From the NCBI GenBank assembly GCA_951406725.2, contig OX597816.1:130324001-130388000 (forward strand): a stretch of 64,000 bases of DNA, given 5' to 3'. Below the pieces are notes generated by a model. That model saw only the letters and a list, made by a program, of their open reading frames with translations, was not told where the DNA came from and did not search any database. How positions within the stretch are numbered: position 1 is the first letter of the stretch; every line of letters starts with the position of its first letter. This stretch comes from Octopus vulgaris. Its lineage: Eukaryota. Shown one piece after another: positions 8,325 through 62,659 of the stretch. The position numbers and the translations under genes were made by a program.

Positions 8325-9095
8325 ATCTTTTATCTTTTACTTGTTTATGCCATTAAACTGCAGCCATGCTGGGGCACCATCATCATCATCATCGTTTAGC
8401 GTCCGTTTTCCATGCTAGCATGGGTTGGACGGTTCTACTGGGGTCTGTGAAGCCAGAAAGTTTCATCAGGCCCAGTCAAATCTGGCAGTGTTTCTACGGC
8501 TGGATGCCCTTCCTAACGCCAACCACTCCGTGAGTGTAGTGGGTACTTTTTACGTGCCACCCGCACAGGTGCCAGACAGAGCTGGCAAACGGCCACGAAC
8601 GGATGGTGCTTTTTATGTGCCACCGGCACGAGGGTCAGGTGAGGCTGGCAACGGACACGAACGGATGGTGCTTTTTACGTGCCACCGGCACGAGGCCAGT
8701 CGGGGTGGCGCTGGCAACGGTCGTGAAACGGAAGGTTCTCTTACATGCCACCGGCACTGGTAACACCACCTTAAAGAATTCTTAGTCAAATGAATTGACC
8801 CCAGTACTTATTTAATTATACCTGGAACTTATTCTATTGGTCTCTTTTGCCAGACTGCTAATTTACAGGAACATAAACACACCAACACTAGTTGTCAAGC
8901 AGCGGCAGGAACAAACACAAAGACACACACACAAAGATATATGTGACAAGCTTCTTCCAGATTCTGTCTGTCAAGGCTTTGGTTGGCCTCAGCATACAGT
9001 AGAAGACACTTGTCCAAGGTGCCATGCAGTGGGACTGAATCCAAGACCATGTAGTTAGGAAGCAAGCTTCTTACCACACACCCATGCCTGCATCT
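8325..9095 (-). mobile_element. SINE family A copy interrupted by an RTE fragment
   Basis: Tail at 8325-8379 and body/head at 8764-9095 match the 39248-39632 element. Confidence 0.8.
8380..8763 (-). mobile_element. RTE 3'-end fragment nested in a SINE
   Basis: Near-identical to 56240-56480, with a (CAT)n tail, about 4 array cores, and candidate TSD cacca (8375-8379 / 8764-8768). Confidence 0.9.
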
Positions 9096-23129: not shown

Positions 23130-23595
23130 GATGTTCATGACTTAATAGGTCTCCTCATGCATGGCATGTTGCCCTATGATCCAAGGTACTTTTTGAGTGG
23201 GCTGATTATGTGACACTGGCGTACGTTACATGTTGTTATATATATGTATGTATACATATATACGAGCAAAATGTCCCCTGTCCAATGGACGGTGCTGGTG
23301 GCACATAAAAACACCATCTGAACGTGGCTGATACCAGTGTTGCATTGACTGGCTCCCATGCCGGTGGCACATAAAAAGCACCATCCAATCATGGTCGATG
23401 ACAGCCTCCTCTGGCCCCTGTGCCGGTGGCATGTAAAAAAAGCACCCACTACAGTCTCAGAGTGGTTGGTGTTAGGAAGGGCATCCAGCTGTAGAAAGAC
23501 TGCCAGATCAGACTGGAGTAGCCTCCTGGCTTCTCAGACCTCAGTTGAACTGTCCAACCCATGCCAGCATAGAAAATAGACATTAAACGATGATA
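23130..23595 (+). mobile_element. RTE 3' UTR fragment
   Basis: Three ggtggca(c/t)rtaaaa cores followed by the conserved ttaggaagggcatccagctgtagaaa...cccatgccagcat tail. Confidence 0.85.
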
Positions 23596-30169: not shown

Positions 30170-31860
30170 CTCATCACCATCATTTAACGTCTGTTTTCCA
30201 TGCTAGCATGGGTTGGACGGTTTGACCGAGGTCTGGAGAGCCAGCAGCTGCACCAGGCTCCAATCTGATCTGGCAATGTTTCTACAGATGGATGCCCTTC
30301 CTAACACCAAACACTTTGAGAGTGTAGTGGGTGCTTTTTATGAGCGGCTAGCTCAGGAGCCAGTCAAGTGGGCTGGCAATGATCACATTTGGATGGTGCT
30401 TTTTACGTACCACCGGCACAGAAGCCACACTCTTCACTACACTCGTTACCAACCCTCACTTTACTGACAGCATCCCTGTACAGAGCTTGTACAGCTCTTA
30501 CCAGCCACTTATCTATTCCCAGTTTCCGCATTGACCACCAGATAAGGGATTGGGGGATCATGTCAAAGGCTTTCTCCAAATCAACAAAAGCCAAGTACAA
30601 AGGTTTATCTTTGGCTAGATATCTCTCCTGCAGTTGCCTTATCAGAAATATAGCATCAGTGGTGCTTCTGCCTGGCACAAAACCGAACTGCATCTCATCT
30701 AGGCTAACTCTCTCCGTAATTAGTTGGGCTATGACCCTTTCTGTAACTTAAATCACCTGATCCAATAATTTGATACGCCTGTAGTTATTTCTATCTAAAG
30801 CATCACCTTTACCCTTGTAGCAGTAGACTATGGTGCTGCTGCACTAGTCATTAGATATGACTCCTTCATGAACTACCTGATTTACAATGCAGGTGACAAG
30901 ATCATAACCCACACTGCTCGATACTTTAAGCATCCCAGTGGTGATTCCTGATGGACCAGGTGCTTTCCCTGTCTTCATATCCTTAATTGCTTTATCTACC
31001 TGGGTACTGTCAATTCAGATAGCTGGTCTCTCAATTGGGTCAATCTTTGGCAGACTCTCCTCCCCACATTCATTCTCCACAGCAGTCTTTCATAATGGCT
31101 TCTCCAAGCCTCTTTCTTTGCAGAATCATTAAATGGAAGGGTACAATCATCCATGTGGACACATTTCTCTCCTATGACATCATGGTTTTCTCACACACAG
31201 TCTTGCAATCTATTGGACCTCACATAGCTGAACATTGGGTAACTACTACTTTTCTGCTACTCCCTTGGCTATATATACTTGTCTCTTAGCTTCCCTTTTG
31301 GCTATCTGATACATTCTCTTGCTACCCCAACTCTTCCAGGCATTCCAAGCCCGTTTCTTTGCTCTATTGGCCCTGTCTACAGTATTGTTCCACCATCATG
31401 TTAACCTAGGTCTGGAAAGGATTTTGCATCAGCCACAGATTTGGTCTGTGGCACTCAGCAAGCTGTCTTGCAGGAATTACCAGCTGCCTTCTATGTCACA
31501 GGACTAGCTCCTCCTCCCTATCATCAAATTTCTCAGTATGGATATCTCTAAATCTCTGACCATGTGAAGGGTTCCTAAGCTTCCAAGTCCTTCTTTTCCA
31601 GATTGGTCTGGTTTTTGGCATCCTTCTGGCCTCGAGTCTAAAGTCACTAATAACTTGTCTATGTTGGGGTGGGGGGTACATTCTTCACCAGGGAAGGTTT
31701 TTGTATTTAAGAACAACCATGCATCCTGTTGTCTGATGAGAATGAAATCAATCTGGCTAGTAGTCACCTGATCAATAGGTTATCAGGTGGATAGCTGGCT
31801 TCCTGAAGTTGGTGTTGCAGATCAATAGGTTATATGCATCGTAGAACTCCAGGAGCCTAC
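30170..31860 (-). mobile_element. Degenerate RTE LINE, 5'-truncated and internally deleted
   Basis: Fragments LLEFYDAYNLLICNTNFRKP, SQIDFIL, FPGEECTP, MQFGFVPGRSTTDAIF and DLEKAFD with frameshifts. RT is joined directly to the 3' UTR near 30425. Confidence 0.92.
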
Positions 31861-34719: not shown

Positions 34720-35794
34720 TTGAAATAATTATTTTAAGAGCAGGATGTTCTTCCTACAACTAATCCTCCAACAATCAAGTACCAATTATCCATTCCATGA
34801 GTATGCCTCTCACTGAGGAAATGACCAGCGACCGAGACCTTTGGAAATATGCAGTGCGTGAGAAGACCAGGCAGGACAAGTGAGTCCAGCCCACTTATGC
34901 ATGTCTTTCCTCCCTTGGACATACAAAGACTTGTTGAGGCAAGCGAAGTCGAAATCGAACCTCATCCGACGACAGGCATCCATGCCAACCCCGCTTCTCT
35001 GCTTGTGAAGACCTGTTGGGGCAAGTGAAATCGGAATCGAACCAATCCTATGACTGGCACCCGGCAGTTGCCAGGACCCCTGGACTGGTGGTACGTAAAA
35101 AGCACTATCCGAATCGTGGCTGATGCCAGCGCCGCCTCGACTGGTTTCTGTGCCGGTGGCACGTAAAAAGCACCATCTGAATCGTGGCCGATGCCAGTGC
35201 CGCCTTGACTGGCTTCCATGCCGGTGGCACGTAAAATGCACCAATCCGACTGTGGCCGTTGCCAGCCTCGCATGGCACCTGTGCAGGTGGCACGTAAAAA
35301 GTACCCACTACACTCACGGAGTGGTTGGCGTTAGGAAGGGCATCCAGCTGTAGAAACACTGCCAGATAAGACTGGAGCCTGGTGCAGCCTTCTGGCTTCC
35401 CAGATCCCCGGTCGAACCATCCAACCCATGCTAGCATGGAGAATGGACTTTAAACGATGATGATGATGATGAGTTTAGTCAGAACAGAGTGGTGGGAGAG
35501 GCTGCACTCAAGACATTTTGTCATGTATTTAGGAGCTCATTAATCCATCATTTCGAATTTTTGTGGTGTAATTAAAAGCTAAATAAACTAAAAAAAATAT
35601 TGCACCAACAAAATAATGGATTAATGAGCTCCGAAATACATGACAAAATGTCGAGTGTAGCCACTCCCACCACTCTGTTCTGACTAAACTATTTAAAAAA
35701 ATATAGCCATACTCATGGAATGGATAACTGGTACTTGATTGTTGGAGGATTAGTTGTAGGAAGAACATTCTGCCCTTAAAATAATTATTTTCAA
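34720..35794. repeat. Hairpin (foldback/MITE-like) element with ~180-bp arms; left arm split by an RTE insertion
   Basis: 34720-34805 is the reverse complement of 35708-35794, and 35472-35553 is the reverse complement of 35611-35690. Confidence 0.88.
34806..35472 (+). mobile_element. RTE 3'-end fragment (ORF C-terminus + 3' UTR)
   Basis: Encodes LTEEMTSDRDLWKYAVREKTRQDK* (the full copy ends ...KTRQDQ*). About 4 array cores and a (GAT)n tail. Confidence 0.92.
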
Positions 35795-38925: not shown

Positions 38926-39247
38926 ATCCTTAATTTATATTCAATACTGTCATTGAATTACTGGTCCAAAGAAGCGGTGTAAAATGTTATAGCATTTTCA
39001 AGAATCTTCCAAACTGGTGAAGTTTGTTGTATTTGATTTTTTACTTCCGTAGATTGGTATTTGTAGAGGAAGCAAGGATAACTTAGAAGTGTTTTTACAA
39101 AGCAGTTGTTTTTCTTTTGGAAATCTTAGCAAAACAAGGTTTTGAGTAATGTGGGACATTATAGATGAGAAGACAAACATGATTTAGGAGAGGGTATATT
39201 CACAGTTTTTTTTTTTTTTTTATTCAGACGATCATAAACCTCATAGG

Positions 39248-39632
39248 CATTGGAGTGGCTGTGTGGTAAGTAGCTTGCTTACCAACCACATGGTTCCGGA
39301 TTCATCCCGCTGCGTGGCACCTTGGGCAAGTATCTTCTACTATAGCCTCGGGCCGACCAAAGCCTTGTGAGTGGATTTGGTAAACGAAAACAGAAAGAAG
39401 CCTGTCGTATATATATGTATATATATATATGTATGCGTGTGTATATGTTTCTGTGCCTGTGTTTGACAACCGATGCTGGTGTGTGTACGTCCCCGTAACT
39501 AAGTGGTTTGGCAAAAGTGACCAATATAATAAGTACTAGGCTTACAAAGAATAAGTCCTGGGGTCGATTTGCTCGACTAAAGGCGGTGCTCCAGCATGGC
39601 CACAGTCAAATGACTGAAACAAGTAAAAAGAG
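39248..39632 (+). mobile_element. tRNA-derived SINE, near full length (family A, tail ending gactgaaacaagtaaaa)
   Basis: A-box tggctgtgtgg, B-box-like ggttcc..attc..ccc, central caccttgggcaagt domain, internal (TA/TG)n. Multiple copies in the window. Confidence 0.85.
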
Positions 39633-43520: not shown

Positions 43521-43965
43521 TATATATGACATTAAATGAATGTCAAGGGAAGAGGAAATTATGCAATGAACTTCAGTGACCTATAGCTGTTTCTGCAACA
43601 AAATATCATACACTCAGAGCTGAGTGCTTGTGCATCACCGCCTAGCTTACTCGGAGTTTCAAAAATGAAGTGCACGACATGTTATAGCAGAAACAGTTGT
43701 AAACTAACGAAGTTTATTGCACGATTTCCTATTCTTTTGTCATTTATCTAATTTCGCATAAGGCTCTGTACTTAACTAATACTTTATTCTGAAGCATACG
43801 TATAAAGAACTCTAACACCAGATTATTAGTATCGTTATACCTAAGCGAAACATTAATATATATTTTAGAAATGAAGGGAATCTCGAACGAAGGAAAGTAG
43901 CTGTGAAAACAACTTAGAGGATCGGGTACATACATACATGTATGCATGCATACACACACATACAC

Positions 43966-44085
43966 AGTCTTTCTATATATAGTAAGACTTTATATAGTCT
44001 TACTATAATAAGACTATATACAGTCTTACTATAGTAAGACTATATACAGTCTTACTATAGTAAGACTATATACAGTCTTACTATA
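43966..44085. repeat. Minisatellite of ~26-bp units, each containing a 20-bp palindrome
   Basis: (agtcttactatagtaagact atatac) x about 4.5. Confidence 0.9.
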
Positions 44086-44094
44086 TGTAGTCTC

Positions 44095-55330: not shown

Positions 55331-55869
55331 TGTGATCAAGAAAAACCATGTTCAAAGATGTACCAGCTATGATTACTCCACTTTTTATTTAAACAGAGTG
55401 TATCCAGGTTTACATTATTCAATGTGGGCTTCATTTTCAAAATGATAGGATGTGATTTAAGGAATAGTTGTTCTTTCAAGTGAGTTGGTCAACTGTATAG
55501 AGACTTCTCTAGTTGATTAAAGGGGTTGTAGTTGGTGGTTTTTATCTTTTATTTGTTTCAGTCATTTGATCGTGGCCATGCTGGAGCATGCCTTGAAAGG
55601 TTTTAGTTGAATCCCAGAACTTTATTTTTGTACTCTTTTGCTGAACCGCTAAGTTATGAGGACATAAACACACCAACACTGGTTGTAAAGAGGTGGTGGG
55701 AGACAAACACAGACACAAAAATACACACACACACAGCCACACCTGTGCCTATCTCCATAAACTTGGACATGTTTCAAGTGTGAATAATTAAATATTTTCA
55801 GTGTGGTTATCTTTTTTCTTGTAGATAACACACTCATACTTCTATATTTCATAACTGCAGGTGTGGCAG

Positions 55870-56238
55870 GTGCAGGCATTGCTGTGTAGTTGAGAGGCTT
55901 GCTTCCCAACCATATAGTCTTGGGTTCAGTCTGGACAAGTGTCTTCTATAGCGCTGGCTGATCAAAGCCTTGTGAATGGATTTGGTAGCTGGGAATTGTA
56001 AGGAACTAATTTGTATGTCCTCTTGTCTTGACATTGTGTAACTGACTGTCATTGTCATACAGTGTCATTCATTTTCAATATTCTGCAAGAACATGTCTGA
56101 TCATGTGGAAATATTACCTTACTTGGAAACAAGTGAAGGTTGGCAACAAGGAGGACATCCGACTGTAGAAAGTCTACCTCAATAAACTCCATCTGACATG
56201 TGCAGGCATGGAAGAGAGTTCATTACAACAACAATGAT
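55870..56238 (+). mobile_element. SINE with family-A head and RTE-type tail (similar copies at ~1040-1445 -, ~6606-6950 -, ~28850-29250 +)
   Basis: Same tRNA-like head and aaagccttgtga.tggatttggtag domain, followed by a different body ending ggacatcc..ctgtagaaa...gcatggaa...(gat)n. Confidence 0.75.
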
Positions 56239-56399
56239 CATCATCATCATCATCATCGTTTAGCGTCCGTTTTCCATGCTAGCATGGGTTGGACGGGTCA
56301 ACTGGGGTCTGTGAAGCTGGAAGGCTTCGTCAGGCCCAGTCAGATCTGGCAGTGTTTCTACGGCTGGATGCCCTTCCTAACGCCAACCACTCCGCGAGT

Positions 56400-57180
56400 G
56401 TAGTGGGTGTTTTTTACGTGCCACCTGCACAGGTGCCAGACAGAGCTGGTGAATGGCCACGAACGGATGGTGCTTTTACGTGTCACCGGCTCGGGGCCAG
56501 GCGATGCTGGCAACGGACACGAACGGATGGTGCTTTTACGTGCCACCGACACGGTTGCCAGACAGAGCTGGCAAACGGCCACGAACGGACGGTGCTTTTA
56601 CGTGTCACCGGCACGGGGGCCAGCCGAGGCTGGCAACGGATGCGAACGGATGGTGCTTTTACGTGCCACCGACACGGTTGCCAGACAGAGCTGGCAAACG
56701 GCCACGAGCAGACGGTGCTTTTACGTGTCACCGGCACGGGGGCCAGCTGAGGCTGGCAACGGACGCGAACAGATGGTGCTTTTACGTGCCACCGACACGG
56801 TTGCCAGACAGAGCTGGCAAACGGCCACGAGCGGACGGTGCTTTTACGTGGCAACGGACACGGACGGATGGTGCTTTTACGTGCCACCGACACAGGGCCA
56901 GACAGAGCTGGCAAATGGCCACGAACGGATGGTGCTTTTACGTGCCACCGACACGGGGCCAGACAGAGCTGGCCAACGGCCACGAACGGACGGTGCTTTT
57001 ACGTGTCACCGGCACGGGGCCAGGCGAGGCTGGCAACGAACACGAACGGATGGTGCTTTTACGTGCCACCGACACGGGGCCAGGCAGAGCTGGCAAACGG
57101 CCATGAGCGAATGGTGCTTATACGTATCACCGGCACGGGTGCCAGACGAGGCTGACAGCGGACACGAACAGATGGGTCAC
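56400..57180 (-). repeat. Tandem array of about 13 units of ~61 bp in the RTE 3' UTR, with a ~123-bp dimeric higher-order period
   Basis: Recurring ggtgcttttacgtg(c/t)cacc core, with alternating gccagacagagctggc and gccag..gaggctggc units. Confidence 0.95.
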
Positions 57181-57222
57181 TTAACCCCTGCTTTCTGATA
57201 TATGATTTGATTTTGATTGTTC

Positions 57223-60012
57223 TCACTGGTCTTGCCGGGTCTTCTCACGCACAGCATACTTCCATAGGTCTCGGTCTCTGGTCATTTCCTTGGTGAGACC
57301 TAGAGTTCGAAGGTCGTGCTTCACCACCTCGACCCAGGTTTTCCTGGGTCTACCTCTTCCACAGGTCCCCTCAACTGTCAGGGTGTGGCACTTTTTCACA
57401 CACCTATCTTCATCCATTCTCACCACATGACCATACCAGCGCAATCGTCTCTCTTGCACACAACATCTGATTCCTCTTAGGTCCAACTTTTCTCTCAAGG
57501 TACTTACACTCTGTCGACTATGAACACTGACATTACACATCCAACGGAGCATACTAGCTTCATTTCTCGCGAGCTTACGCATGTCCTCAGCAGTCACGGC
57601 CCATGTTTCACTGCCATGTAGCATGGCTGTTCGTACACATGCATCATACAGTCTGCCTTTTACTCTGAGCGAGAGGCCTTTAGTCACCAACAGAGGTAAG
57701 AGCTCCCTAAACTTTGCCCAGGCTATTCTTACTCTAGCCGTTACACTTTCAGCACACCCACCCCCACTACTGACTTGGTCACCAAGATAACGGAAGCTAT
57801 CAACTACTTCTAGTTTTTCCCCCTGGAAAGTGACGGAAGTTGTTTTCTGCAGATTTTCAGAGGTTAATGCTCCCGAGCATCTGCCACATACAAAAACCAT
57901 CTTCCTAGTTAGCCTTCCTATGACATTGCTGCACCTCTTATGTGTCCATAGCTTACACTTGGTGCATCTTATAGAGTTTCTACCTACACCTTTTCTACAG
58001 ATCGAGCAGGGCCATCTACCTGAAGGCGTTTGTGATTTGTCTACCTTCCTACTTATTACGACTTTGGTTTTAGCTAGGTTGACTCTAAGGCCCTTCGATT
58101 CTAAACCATGCTTCCACACCTGAAACTTCTTCTCCAGTTCTGATAATGACTCAGCAATTAGAGCAAGGTCATCAGCATAGAGGAGCTCCCAGGGGCATCC
58201 TGTCTTGAATTCCTCCGTTATTGCCTGGAGGACTATGATAAATAGGAGGGGGCTGAGGACTGAGCCTTGGTGGACCCCTACCTCTACCCGGAATTCTTCA
58301 CTGTACTCATTTCCAACCCTCACCTTACTAGCAGCGTCCCTGTACATGGCTTGCACAGCTCTCACTAACCATTCTTCTATTCCTAGTTTCCTCATTGACC
58401 ACCATATGAGGGATCGGGGGACCCTGTCGAAGGCTTTCTCCATGTCAACAAAAGCCAGGTACATGGCCTTATCTTTGGCTAGGTATTTCTCCTGCAGCTG
58501 CCTTACCAGGAATATAGCATCAGTGGTACTTTTCCCTGGCATGAAACCAAACTGCATCTCATCTAAACTAACTCTCTCTCTAATTAGTTGGCTTATGACC
58601 CTCTCTGTAACCTTCATCACCTGATCCAACAGCTTGATACCTCTGTAATTATTTGTATCTAGGGCATCACCTTTACCTTTGTAGCAGTTGACTATTATGC
58701 TGCTACACCAGTCATTGGGTATGACTCCTTCATGTATCACCTGATTAACTATACAGGTGACTAGGCTATAGCCGACACTACCAGATATTTTGAGCATCTC
58801 TGCAGTGATACCTGATGGGTCTGGGGCTTTCCCTGTCTTCATGCTTCTAATTGCCTTAGCTACTAAGGAACTATCAACCCTGATAGCTGGTCCCTCTGTT
58901 GGGTCAACGTTCGGCAGACTCTCTTTATCCCATTCATTTTCTTTATTCAGCAACCTCTCATAGTGGCATCTCCAAGCCTCTCTCTTTGCATCCTCGTTTA
59001 GCGCAAGTGAACCATCTTCCATGCGAACACACTTCTCTCCCACCACATCACAATTCTCTCTCACACACTGTCTTGCAACGCGAAACACCTCCAGTCTTTG
59101 GTCCTCACGGCGCAGAACATTGGCAAATTTTTTCTTATCTGCTTCCCCTCTGGCTAGATAGACCTGTCTCCTAGCTTCCCTTTTAGCAGTCTGATACAAT
59201 TCCCTGCTACCACCATTCTTCCAGTGCTTCCAAGTCTGTCTCTTTTCTGTAATAGCCCTGTCTACGACACTGTTCCACCACCACGTTACCTTGGGACGAG
59301 AGGGGACTTTGCACCAGCCACAGATCTGGTCAGTGGCTCTCAGCAGGTTGTCCCTTAGAAACGTCCAGTTGTCCTCTACCGCATGTGATACACTATCCCC
59401 TTCTATTTCGTCAAAGGCTTCAAGTAACATGTCTCTAAATCTCTGTCCATTCACAGGATCCTTAAGCTTCCAGATCCTTCTTCTCCATGTTGGTCGTCTT
59501 CTGGTTGTCCTCCTACTCCTGATCCTAAAGTCACTAACTACCAGTCTATGTTGTGGGGTGCATTCTTCGCCTGGGAAGGTTTTGGCATTTATAAGTAGCC
59601 ATCTCTCCCTTTGCCTGGCAAGGATGTAGTCAATTTGGCTGGTATGTTGGCCCGATCGGTAGGTGACTAGGTGGTTGGTAGGTTTCCTGAAGTTAGTGTT
59701 GCAAATCATAAGATTATTTGCATCGCAGAACTCCAGCAGCCTGGTTCCCTCCTCGTTGCGGGAACCAGAGCCATAGCCTCCATGTACGCCGTGGAAGCCC
59801 CCAGCATGTCGTCCAACGTGACCATTGAAGTCACCAGCCACAAAGAGAAGGTCTCTGTCGTTCGTCAACGAGGTAGTCTGCAGTAGAGTGTCATAGAATC
59901 GGTCTTTCTGTCCATCAGGTAGCCCCGACTGAGGAGCATAGGCTGATATAATGGTTGCTAAACTATGATGAAGCGCTAATCTAATCTTAAGTATTCTGTC
60001 GCATACTCTGAT
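57223..60012 (-). CDS. RTE ORF: partial APE endonuclease + reverse transcriptase + PHD-type zinc finger (no native start)
   Basis: Motifs SAYAPQ, GDFNGHVG, QIDYIL, NYRGIKLL, QFGF, DMEKAFD, GVHQGSVLSPLLF, YADD, FRYLG, RRLRWYGHV, RGRPRKTW. The frame stays open for 48 codons upstream of the tracked 881-aa ORF, up to the truncation point. Confidence 0.93.
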   Translation of the reverse strand: MRVCDRILKIRLALHHSLATIISAYAPQSGLPDGQKDRFYDTLLQTTSLTNDRDLLFVAGDFNGHVGRHAGGFHGVHGGYGSGSRNEEGTRLLEFCDANNLMICNTNFRKPTNHLVTYRSGQHTSQIDYILARQRERWLLINAKTFPGEECTPQHRLVVSDFRIRSRRTTRRRPTWRRRIWKLKDPVNGQRFRDMLLEAFDEIEGDSVSHAVEDNWTFLRDNLLRATDQICGWCKVPSRPKVTWWWNSVVDRAITEKRQTWKHWKNGGSRELYQTAKREARRQVYLARGEADKKKFANVLRREDQRLEVFRVARQCVRENCDVVGEKCVRMEDGSLALNEDAKREAWRCHYERLLNKENEWDKESLPNVDPTEGPAIRVDSSLVAKAIRSMKTGKAPDPSGITAEMLKISGSVGYSLVTCIVNQVIHEGVIPNDWCSSIIVNCYKGKGDALDTNNYRGIKLLDQVMKVTERVISQLIRERVSLDEMQFGFMPGKSTTDAIFLVRQLQEKYLAKDKAMYLAFVDMEKAFDRVPRSLIWWSMRKLGIEEWLVRAVQAMYRDAASKVRVGNEYSEEFRVEVGVHQGSVLSPLLFIIVLQAITEEFKTGCPWELLYADDLALIAESLSELEKKFQVWKHGLESKGLRVNLAKTKVVISRKVDKSQTPSGRWPCSICRKGVGRNSIRCTKCKLWTHKRCSNVIGRLTRKMVFVCGRCSGALTSENLQKTTSVTFQGEKLEVVDSFRYLGDQVSSGGGCAESVTARVRIAWAKFRELLPLLVTKGLSLRVKGRLYDACVRTAMLHGSETWAVTAEDMRKLARNEASMLRWMCNVSVHSRQSVSTLREKLDLRGIRCCVQERRLRWYGHVVRMDEDRCVKKCHTLTVEGTCGRGRPRKTWVEVVKHDLRTLGLTKEMTRDRDLWKYAVREKTRQDQ

Positions 60013-60097
60013 TAATGATGATGATGCTATTTAATTAACTCCCAGTTAACCTTGATTGAGGAAACCTCTGTGATAACTGAGCATACTATTATTTCAT

Positions 60098-60485
60098 TCT
60101 TTTACTTGTTTCAGTCATTTGAGTGTGGCCATGCTGGAGCACCAACTTTAGTTGAGCAAATTGGCTCCAGGACTTATTCTTTATAAGCCTAGTACTTATT
60201 CTATCAGTCTGTTTTGCTAAACTGCTAAGTTACAGGGAACGTAAACACACCAGCAATGGTTGTCAAGCGATAGTGGGTGGGCAAACACAGACACACAAAT
60301 ATATATATACACACACACACATGACAGGCTTCTTTCAGTTTCCGTCTACCAAATCTACTCACAAGGCTTTGGTTGGCCCAAGGCTATAGTAGGAGACACT
60401 TACCTAAGGTACCATGCAGTGGGACTGAACCTGGAACCATGTGGTTGGGAAGCAAGCTTTTTATCACACAGTTACTCCTGCGCCT
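60098..60485 (-). mobile_element. SINE family A copy
   Basis: Reverse complement of the 39248-39632 element along its length. Confidence 0.85.
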
Positions 60486-62659
60486 ATGTTTTTTTTTCTA
60501 TTTAGGTCCAATATATTTAAAATCACATGATACCATGTTCTTCATTTTTAAGGTAGTAGGGTGTGATTTGAAGGAAATATTTTTACCCCCTGCCAACCAC
60601 ATTGACTCGATATTTCATAATGGCAGAATCATTAGCATACCAAACAAAATGCTTAGTGGTTTTTTTTTTTTGTCTGCCTTTATGTTCTGGGTTCAAATTC
60701 CACTGAAGTTGACTTTGTCTTTCATCCTTTTGGAGTTGATAAAAAAAAGTACCAGTTGAGCACTGGGGTCAACGTAATCAGTTAGCCAATTCCCTCCAAT
60801 TTCTGGCTTTGTGTCAAAATTTGAAACCAATGTTTATATCAATTGCCTCCCTAATATAATGCAGATAAGTTTAGGTAAGATAGAATTGAAAGAAATTTGC
60901 TATCTAAATGTGGAGGTCAAGTACAATAGATATGTGTTGGCTTTTGCAGTAAAGTACCCATGTGTTATGAGTTTAGGAATGTGAGATAAGATGGTGACGA
61001 GGAAGAGAACAGAAGAAAGACTAAGTTGTTATGAATCATTGAGGATGTCAAAAGATTCGACTTCTAGTGCAGATTTGTCAGCTGATTGAGTGAGAAAGGT
61101 TAAAGCTTGAGTTGTTGAAGTTTTCAAGAATGCTACTTGAAATATGATGCAACTGTTTTTATTATGAGAATTTAAACTTTTTGTGATTAAGCAGAAACAA
61201 TGTGAGAATATTTTTTATCTTTTACTTATTTCAGTCATTAGACTACAGCCATGGGCATTGCCTTCAGGAATTTTAGTCGAATGAATCAACTCTAGTACAT
61301 ATTTTCTAAGTAATATGAAATAGATACTTGTGCCCAATGGCGAGCTTTGAGTGGGAATTGAATACAATCAGCAAGTCTGTTGAAAAAGCAGTAAACATTA
61401 AAATTCAGCATGGTGATGTGTCAACGTCAAGAGAAACTTGGTGAAGTTGGATTTATCAATTAGAGAGTTTCTTTCTTTTTTTTTTTACTATTCATGAATT
61501 TGGTGATTGTGAGATTAGCCGACTTAGGATATGCCAAAAATAAAGGTAGTGCATGAAATACTGTTGGACTACCAACATATGGATCATAAATTGAAAGCTT
61601 ATGCAAGTGGTTTGTTATGTTTCTGAGTAGCGCACTTAGTTTTGCATCTTTCTTGCCTCCCCTCTGTTGAGGATGGGTGTGTTATTTGTTAGATTGGGGA
61701 GGGTGCTATATAAAGAAAAGTTTATTATGCCTGTGTTTATGACTTGTTGCAACCCCAAATATAACATCAATGCTTCATAAGTTATTGACTAACATAGGGT
61801 TACAGTGATGGTAAGTGGTGGGTGTAGGGTAGAGAGAGTGCAAAGAGAAAAGTAGAGGGAAGAGTGGGTGTTTGCAATACCACTGTGTGTGCGTGTGTAA
61901 GCTGAAGTGTAGTTAAATTTGAAATTCTTTCAATTGTTTAGAGGTTAACAAGCATCTATTGTGTGGTAAAGAATATAAAATATGTGTAGCTAGGTGTGCA
62001 ACAGTCATTCTTGCAATATATTACATCCAGGTAATGAATATGTCTCTCTCTCTCTCTCTCCACCCATCCATCCATCCATGTGATAGAGAGAGAGAGCATG
62101 TATGTATACATGATAGGCTTCTTTGCAGTTTCCATCTGTCAGATTTCACTCGAAAGACGGTCAACTTGATGCTATTAGTAGAAACAAGTACATCATATCC
62201 AAAACTATCTGGTTGCAAAATGAACTAAATGACACAGCCATGCTTGTGCCTGACAATGCTTAGAATATAAAGTTTTCCAGAAATTGTTGGTATATCAATC
62301 TTAATATATACAGTTGGTGGAATTATTCAAATTGATGATGCTTAAGTGGACAGAGTAGTGACTTCTGTCATGAAATAGACAGTGTTTATGTTTGCATTTC
62401 TTAAATTATTTATTTATTCTTTACGATTTTGACTTATAAATTTGGATATTTTTTGCCTATTATTGGAGCAGAAAATAAAAGAACTAATTTTCAGGGGCAA
62501 AATACAATACTTGCAATAGGTTTAGTTTCATGTTATTCAGAGCTTTTGATTCTTACTGTCATTGTGCTTCACACTTTTGCAACAAAATATTATTTGATTC
62601 TCCCTGGAAAATACATTGATAGAATGGAGCTACTTATGTTATAGGTGGACTACATATTA

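What the first reader, a model, noticed from the sequence alone, without database searches (positions are those of the whole stretch)
56400..57180. Expandable array of predicted H-type pseudoknot + hairpin modules in an RTE LINE 3' UTR
Seen: in the LINE RNA sense, each ~61-nt unit has a conserved core YGUGC-N-GGUG-GCACG-UAAAA(A)G-CACC plus a GCCAG-(variable loop)-CUGGC hairpin. The core fits a compact H-type pseudoknot: S1 YGUGC/GCACG, 1-nt L1, S2 GGUG/CACC, A-rich L3. A clean example is 35150-35174 on the + strand. The L1 base varies freely between copies (C at 35154, A in the terminal unit, U near 23296), and several stem changes are G-U wobbles (GUGU/GCAC, GGUG/UACC). Counter-evidence: one alternating unit type has a C-A mismatch in S1. 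Core number differs between copies in this window, about 13 here versus about 2-4 at 8380, 23130, 30170 and 34806, and here the units alternate as a ~123-bp dimer. Established: LINE 3' ends carry structures recognised by their RT, and compact pseudoknots with A-rich loops are known from viral RNAs. Inference: this may be a modular RNA element (RNP recruitment, nuclease resistance, or translation control) that is amplified within the retrotransposon. I am not aware of a description of it.
Basis: partly seen in the sequence, partly recalled or inferred. Interest (0 to 1): 0.75.

Follow-up and report, generated by a model that had tools for sequence, protein, structure and literature searches.

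The report
Palindromic minisatellite in octopus LINE tail
A jumping gene in a likely octopus genome carries 13 tandem copies of a 61-base repeat near its end; the repeat count differs from copy to copy, neighbouring repeats are predicted to pair with each other rather than fold as separate pseudoknots, and the array is likely a by-product of duplication, because a large sister family spreads with only one intact repeat.

Summary
The array is real: 13 cores in the 3' UTR of a young, 5'-truncated RTE-type LINE. It is family-wide: complete young arrays hold 5-15 cores (19 copies), one holds 25, and older families hold 1-4 or a bare 26-nt version. The serial-pseudoknot reading is weakly supported: no significant covariation, no wobble bias (158 G-U vs 183 A-C), and much of the variation is CpG decay. 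The 15-nt core is a near-palindrome. The two alternating types, imperfect on their own, are Watson-Crick complements of each other, so neighbours are predicted to form a 14-of-15-bp duplex; this explains the C-A mismatch. The array is not needed for mobility: 45 of 100 sampled young 3' ends belong to a sister family with one intact core and no upstream ORF in the DNA examined, which carries other, unrelated tandem arrays. The LINE's own 5' UTR is also full of duplications. Best reading: a structured minisatellite born from repeated duplication next to a conserved 3' block that resembles an RTE 5'-UTR domain. A pseudoknot in the single terminal core is not excluded.

The parts
57223..60013 (-). 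5'-truncated single ORF of an RTE-type LINE (endonuclease remnant, reverse transcriptase, Cys/His finger); open for 935 codons from 60030, element 5' end about 60013
   Evidence: RVT_1 E 6.7e-32; Exo_endo_phos_2 E 1.5e-6; 5' end; sister copies 98-99.6% identical
57138..57222 (-). A-rich spacer and a half unit (linker plus GCCAG-type hairpin) between the stop codon and the first core
56406..57137 (-). Minisatellite of 13 cores, 60-62 nt per unit, mostly alternating G-type (Y=U, R=G) and A-type (Y=C, R=A); each unit = 15-nt near-palindrome, UAAAAG-CACC, linker, GCCAG/CUGGC hairpin
56837..56870 (-). Fused, shortened unit: deletion between two similar half-unit motifs
   Evidence: (period 33)
56406..56431 (-). 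Terminal core, the only core kept intact in the sister family
56345..56405 (-). Conserved terminal block; its 25-nt centre (56366-56390) also occurs just 5' of an RTE-type ORF in metagenome locus L104
56237..56344 (-). 3' end of the element with (GAT)7 tail at 56237-56257
56233..56238 (-). Probable 6-bp target-site duplication (second copy 60014-60019); overlaps the tail, so the length is uncertain
35087..35305 (+). Older subfamily copy with four cores, 68-nt period
8542..8753 (-). Older copy with four cores, the 5'-most degenerate
23291..23446 (+). Older copy with three decayed cores
30395..30420 (-). Older copy with one recognisable core

Best explanation
The feature is a copy-number-variable minisatellite in the 3' UTR of an active RTE-type LINE, likely produced by repeated tandem duplication of the segment next to the element's conserved 3' block and likely not required for mobility. 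Shown: the same core was amplified in different families with different unit lengths (26, 61-68, about 101 nt; a 129-nt dimer at one dead locus); young arrays keep their end units and gain or lose middle units; unrelated non-coding DNA carried by the same 3' end is duplicated too. Predicted: in RNA, neighbouring near-palindromic cores pair as 14-of-15-bp duplexes with the small hairpins as side arms, not as a string of pseudoknots. Inferred: rare jump-back by the reverse transcriptase, or slippage at flanking microhomology, seeds a duplication; these are tolerated in UTRs and purged from the ORF; slippage or unequal exchange then changes the count. One terminal core plus the 3' block would be the working signal.
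For: Copy number: 5-15 cores in 19 of 19 complete arrays from a sample of 100; 415-956 nt from stop to terminal block among copies 97-99.6% identical in the ORF; 25 cores in L083. Other unit lengths: 26-nt arrays of about 2-54 copies in 17 of 17 loci examined; about 100-nt duplication of core plus block. Expansion without an intact fold: at least 22 copies of a 129-nt block with broken S1 at one locus, L164; upstream units with broken S2 shared by several copies of older subfamilies. Dispensable: 45 of 100 young 3' ends belong to a family with one intact core and no same-strand ORF in the 1.5-2.1 kb examined; 1,043 exact genome hits. General tendency: 30 of these 45 carry other tandem arrays, periods 67-674; the LINE's 5' UTR holds variable duplications of about 70, 174 and 560-850 nt; one 68-nt tandem duplication in 66 kb of ORF. 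Inter-unit pairing: G/A duplex -24.1 kcal/mol, A/A only -11.9; 225 of 310 adjacent young pairs are imperfect in cis and Watson-Crick in trans; the duplex is in the minimum-energy fold of the whole UTR and of a four-unit piece.
Against: The inner pairs of S1 and S2 and the A-run are kept across families whose ORF remnants are only 35-49% identical to this one, while positions predicted unpaired vary; that fits a pseudoknot or a bound motif. With a low pseudoknot penalty (4 kcal/mol, a recalled bracket value) two pseudoknots score -36 to -51, about equal to the nested folds (-41 to -48), in the clean dimers. The trans complementarity is one evolutionary event copied by descent, and one older subfamily shows the opposite, cis-compensated state (6 of 170 old pairs). 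The sister family may borrow protein from array-bearing LINEs, so the array could still help translation or stability in cis. No experiment was run.
Confidence: 0.6

Rival explanations
1. Serial pseudoknots: each core folds as a compact H-type pseudoknot, and the array works like the consecutive pseudoknots in the 3' UTR of tobacco mosaic virus, aiding translation or stability of an RNA that ends in (GAU)n.
For: The bare 26-nt unit equals the span of the drawn pseudoknot. Nine pairs can be drawn in old (4+5), G-type (5+4) and most A-type (4+5) units. The distal S1 pair occurs as C-G, U-G, U-A and A-U. TMV has three consecutive pseudoknots with roles in replication and translation (PMC4683447, passages).
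Against: No significant covariation, no wobble bias; C-A, C-C and G-G states fixed in subfamilies; neighbour duplex preferred with the higher penalty; 5' truncation points are not enriched at the S2 3' strand (2 of 33, expected 3.2); Rfam gives nothing (best E 0.61).
Confidence: 0.15
2. A selected inter-unit duplex: the alternating dimer was favoured because a chain of 15-bp helices binds a host or element protein, or pauses the reverse transcriptase usefully.
For: The only two differences between G and A cores are complementary in trans; A-A neighbours are rare (6 of 310 pairs). 17 of 33 truncation points fall on the 3' half of the palindrome or the hairpin 3' strand, expected 9.3 (post hoc P 0.005).
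Against: One event only; templated repair between inverted copies gives the same pattern without selection (inference). Alternation follows from amplification of a dimer. Truncation mapping is blurred by microhomology with (AT)n targets, and the shortest copies cannot be assigned to a family. No inherited A-to-G excess (ORF 18 A>G vs 24 T>C; array 10 vs 19).
Confidence: 0.13
3. A DNA-level element: the cores are tandem protein-binding sites acting with the relocated RTE 5'-UTR block as a promoter or enhancer at the 3' end.
For: Sequence is conserved rather than covarying. The adjacent block lies 5' of an RTE-type ORF in L104, and Kojima 2018 speculates that conserved RTE 5'-UTR domains bind transcription regulators (PMC5786205, part 4).
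Against: No expression or binding data; copies decay by CpG loss; one locus of four supports the 5'-UTR origin.
Confidence: 0.1
4. Assembly artefact.
For: Tandem arrays can be mis-assembled; no read spanning this locus was seen.
Against: Units are heterogeneous with ordered types shared across chromosomes; thousands of copies; contigs of independent runs of three coded organisms hold array sequence.
Confidence: 0.02

Closest known systems
RTE-clade LINEs as sources of simple repeats (Tay et al. 2010, PMC2887409; abstract and outline read)
   Same: Single endonuclease-RT ORF, short-repeat tail, frequent 3' fragments, repeats spread by the element.
   Different: There the 3' UTR is extremely short and the repeats are microsatellites; here it is about 990 nt with a structured 61-nt minisatellite.
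RTE-2_OV of Octopus vulgaris (Petrosino et al. 2022, PMC9115989; passages read)
   Same: Transcribed RTE LINE whose roughly 600-nt 3' UTR is described as mostly a 'microsatellite' starting at the ORF end; this could be a first sighting of such an array.
Bipartite non-autonomous RTEs and the conserved RTE 5'-UTR domain (Kojima 2018, PMC5786205; parts 2-4 of 5 read)
   Same: 5'-UTR-derived block joined to an RTE 3' tail; the sister family looks like such a bipartite element.
   Different: Here the block sits at the 3' end of the coding LINE itself and was not found at a fixed place in its 5' UTR. A text search of the one supplementary file found no match to the block, so identity with Kojima's domain is not shown.
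Upstream pseudoknot domain of tobacco mosaic virus (PMC4683447; passages read)
   Different: Those are probed and functionally tested; here the fold is unproven and competes with inter-unit pairing.
VNTR of SVA elements and 5' monomer arrays of rodent L1 (recalled, no call)
   Same: Variable tandem repeats carried inside a retrotransposon.
   Different: Different clade, position and sequence.

Membership tests
RTE-clade non-LTR retrotransposon | Single ORF with apurinic endonuclease and reverse transcriptase | tested here: met
   the frame continues 5' in longer copies
RTE-clade non-LTR retrotransposon | Tail of short tandem repeats, variable 5' truncation, target-site duplication | tested here: met
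   (GAT)n tail in 26 of the 29 rows; truncations; probable 6-bp duplication
RTE-clade non-LTR retrotransposon | Very short 3' UTR | tested here: not met
   about 990 nt here
RTE-clade non-LTR retrotransposon | Placement in the RTE clade by RT phylogeny | not tested
   no tree built; homologues at 41-54% identity were almost all unnamed; the clade label rests on architecture and recall
H-type pseudoknot | Two crossing stems can be drawn with feasible loops | tested here: met
   S1 4-5 bp, S2 4-5 bp, L1 1-2 nt, L3 5-7 nt
H-type pseudoknot | Covariation in both stems | tested here: not met
   one genome only, so power is low
H-type pseudoknot | Favoured over competing folds in context | tested here: inconclusive
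   loses by about 9-18 kcal/mol with the high penalty, ties with the low one; the terminal core has a competing 5' hairpin at -9.0
H-type pseudoknot | Experimental structure (probing, NMR) | not testable with these tools
   needs bench work
Known ribozyme or Rfam family | Match to a covariance model | tested here: not met
   best E 0.61 over 56100-57400; ten sister-family loci gave only low-complexity miRNA-type hits among the 150 of 153 rows shown
Minisatellite / VNTR | Head-to-tail units of 10-100 nt with variable number and stable ends | tested here: met
   (variation between paralogous copies)
Minisatellite / VNTR | Length polymorphism at one locus between individuals | tested here: inconclusive
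   short reads and contigs could not be assigned to this locus

The most novel reading that the evidence does not exclude
The core is a real RNA switch, a pseudoknot when alone and a neighbour-to-neighbour duplex when arrayed, kept beside a relocated RTE 5'-UTR domain in every family this reverse transcriptase moves; and the same enzyme copies templates repeatedly into concatemers, which makes this LINE a genome-wide factory of minisatellites, as the uniform arrays of the sister family suggest.
Probability: 0.22. Interest if true: 0.72.

Novelty: new variant of a known kind. Interest (0 to 1): 0.42.

Why it matters
As a by-product, it explains one very abundant repeat of this genome (457 cores in 800 kb chosen for their density; 39,169 exact hits of one variant) and shows how a LINE seeds minisatellites. 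It also warns that self-complementary repeats can look like pseudoknot arrays. If the novel reading holds, natural variants with 1 to 25 units give a ready test of what a LINE 3' UTR does, and the sister family gives a test of repeated template copying by a non-LTR reverse transcriptase in animals.

Tried and rejected
Rfam on the array: nothing. Self-cleaving ribozyme idea (pistol, twister, HDV, hammerhead, compared by eye from recall): no catalytic core seen; a hammerhead motif scan of the 45 sister loci gave six scattered hits, not in register with the arrays. ADAR imprint: no A-to-G excess. Relatives outside this genome: none in genome contigs by protein (17 stretches, 0 confirmed), none in viral contigs by pattern; four metagenome loci hold the terminal 25-mer but not the core. 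Search of 121 proteins for a translated trace of the block: 2 weak hits. Raw reads of run X23: only 12 laid, uninformative. Run X15 holds array contigs but is only guessed to be RNA, so transcription is not shown. A 'constant nine pairs' rule fails: 91 of 200 A-type cores lack the distal S2 pair. ARAGORN found no tRNA in the window. Rows dropped: L164; cores with 3 mismatches (785 of 898 kept); L137, L145, L141 from the array part (L137 and L145 from its ORF part); three duplicated-segment copies. Literature searches that found no description of this array or of pseudoknot arrays in LINE 3' UTRs: (listings only; open-licence library; two returned nothing). Repbase and Dfam entries and the original octopus SINE papers could not be seen, and figures or images in supplements may hold the sequence.

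Full report
What is there. On the minus strand the window holds a LINE cut short at its 5' end (about 60013), with an open frame of 935 codons carrying endonuclease and reverse-transcriptase domains. After the stop come a short spacer, 13 repeat cores 60-62 nt apart (57137-56406), a conserved block and a (GAT)7 tail, inside a probable 6-bp target duplication. The RTE label rests on this architecture; I built no tree. The genome is probably an octopus (earlier scan notes; size). The family is young: twenty copies picked by a 411-nt ORF probe are 99-100% identical there, and most are 98-99.6% identical over the ORF.

The array is a family trait and varies. One five-A form of the core has 39,169 exact matches and the young four-A form 8,133, with none for reversed controls. 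Of 100 young 3' ends taken in order along one contig, 19 reach the spacer or ORF and hold 5-15 cores, 36 are truncated inside the array, and 45 belong to another family. L083 holds 25. End units are constant and middle units come and go. Units within one copy differ as much as units between copies (3.9 vs 3.6 and 2.85 vs 2.79 mismatches), so the mixed array is inherited from source elements and then changes in number.

The same core was amplified several times with different borders. Older subfamilies have 1-4 units of 61-68 nt, and their upstream units are often degenerate, some with S2 broken in several copies. A distant family has bare 26-nt units, about 2 to 54 in a row, before the same block. 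Another duplicated core plus block as about 100 nt. At L164 a decayed two-unit block with broken S1 expanded at least 22 times at one locus, so growth does not need the fold.

The pseudoknot test. Both stems can be drawn, and their inner seven pairs are nearly fixed. But on 30 terminal units from across subfamilies the covariation measures do not beat shuffles (55/500 and 115/500; only the share of paired cells does, 4/500, which relatedness can give). Among 785 cores, changes at the inner pairs give 158 G-U and 183 A-C, plus 10 two-sided changes, mostly at a CpG-affected pair. The S1 junction pair is C-G, U-G, U-A, C-A or C-C depending on subfamily. The L1 'U' and the S2-breaking 'A' are the two products of decay of one CpG. 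These data come from one genome, so power is limited.

A better fold for arrays. The 15-nt core is a near-palindrome. The young G type (U...G) and A type (C...A) are a wobble and a mismatch within a unit but Watson-Crick with each other: 225 of 310 adjacent young pairs are of this kind, against an ancestral C...G state in 108 of 170 older pairs. The G/A duplex has 14 of 15 pairs at -24.1 kcal/mol; A/A reaches only -11.9. It appears in the minimum-energy folds of the whole UTR and of four units, where S1 and S2 have probabilities near zero except at the last two cores; these programs cannot draw pseudoknots. Hand estimates put two pseudoknots about 9-18 kcal/mol behind with a penalty near 10, and level with a penalty of 4 (both values recalled). 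Truncation points fall on the palindrome's 3' half or the hairpin's 3' strand in 17 of 33 cases (expected 9.3, post hoc) and at the S2 3' strand in 2 of 33 (expected 3.2); this is suggestive only.

The array is not needed to move. The 45 sister copies share the last core, the block and the tail, but upstream they have a half core, a C-rich trunk of about 300 nt, and no same-strand ORF in the 1.5-2.1 kb examined; the two ORF hits were opposite-strand neighbours. The family has at least 1,043 exact hits. Thirty of the 45 carry other tandem arrays, periods 67-674 nt, in nine groups, up to about 18 units of 372 nt. In six copies of the 237-nt type, units differ by 0.56 mismatches within a copy and 5.25 between copies, and five of five arrays checked end mid-unit at host DNA. 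That is what repeated copying of one template would leave; end-to-end template jumping is reported for the R2 enzyme (title in the reference list of PMC3774820). The trunk begins with a 35-nt stretch about 80% like the LINE's 5' UTR (E 0.0008-0.01), and that 5' UTR is itself full of variable duplications, while 66 kb of ORF show one, of 68 nt.

The terminal block. Its 25-nt centre occurs in four metagenome contigs; in L104 it lies just before an ORF 40-47% identical to this protein family. It was not found at a fixed place upstream of the ORF in 20 young copies. Kojima 2018 describes a conserved RTE 5'-UTR domain in LINEs and bipartite SINEs (PMC5786205), but I could not match sequences. RNAalifold gives the block a helix kept by one-sided changes.

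Mechanism, committed. Shown: variable array, several independent amplifications, a one-core family that spreads, duplications in other non-coding parts. Predicted: neighbour duplexes in the arrayed RNA. Inferred: duplications seeded during reverse transcription or by slippage, tolerated in UTRs, then changed in number as a minisatellite; one core plus block is the working 3' signal. I put this at 0.6. Serial pseudoknots 0.15, a selected duplex 0.13, a DNA-level element 0.1.

Novelty. Nine literature searches showed no description of the array; Petrosino 2022 mentions a 'microsatellite' filling the 3' UTR of RTE-2_OV, which may be related. Repeat databases were not available. Repeats carried by retrotransposons are a known kind; this structured, repeatedly re-amplified unit and the array-bearing sister family are a new variant. 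Interest 0.42.

Noticed in passing
L250, L279, L285, L293, L344 and 40 more; G000:C2:85114311-85121205: Young family without a detected ORF that shares the LINE's 3' end (at least 1,043 exact hits) and carries unrelated tandem arrays that are near-uniform within each insertion and end mid-unit at host DNA; looks like concatemer copying and may deserve its own study.
   Followed up: partly
L093, L098, L135, L137, L144, L146, L153 (upstream of the ORF): The LINE's pyrimidine-rich 5' UTR has copy-specific tandem duplications of about 70, 174 and 560-850 nt; shared sequence reaches at least 1.7 kb upstream.
   Followed up: partly
window 56345-56405; L104:146-170: A block found 5' of an RTE-type ORF in another organism sits at the 3' end of these LINEs and was not found at a fixed place in their 5' UTR.
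   Followed up: partly
L215, L219, L226, L235 and others: Distant family with bare 26-nt core arrays of about 2-54 units before the same terminal block.
   Followed up: partly
L164:5985 onward (G000:C1:590001-600000): Single-locus expansion of a decayed 129-nt two-unit block, at least 22 copies.
   Followed up: partly
L245-L344, 3' flanks: 52 of 98 young 3' ends are followed by (AT)n-like sequence, suggesting a preference for TA microsatellites as targets (no background rate computed).
   Followed up: partly
window about 57945-58015 (-), residues 675-702 of P0001: Cys/His finger (PHD- or C1-like) inserted after the RT domain, shared with many unnamed homologues.
   Followed up: no
window 60100-60490 (-), similar at 39242-39628, 8793-9080, 55545-55745: Abundant short repeat next to the LINE's 5' end, likely a SINE; ARAGORN finds no tRNA.
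   Followed up: no
young copies, ORF and array: CpG sites mutate several-fold faster than other C and G sites, pointing to methylation of these repeats.
   Followed up: partly
window 43960-44086: Unrelated 26-bp tandem repeat, 4.2 copies, 95% matches.
   Followed up: no
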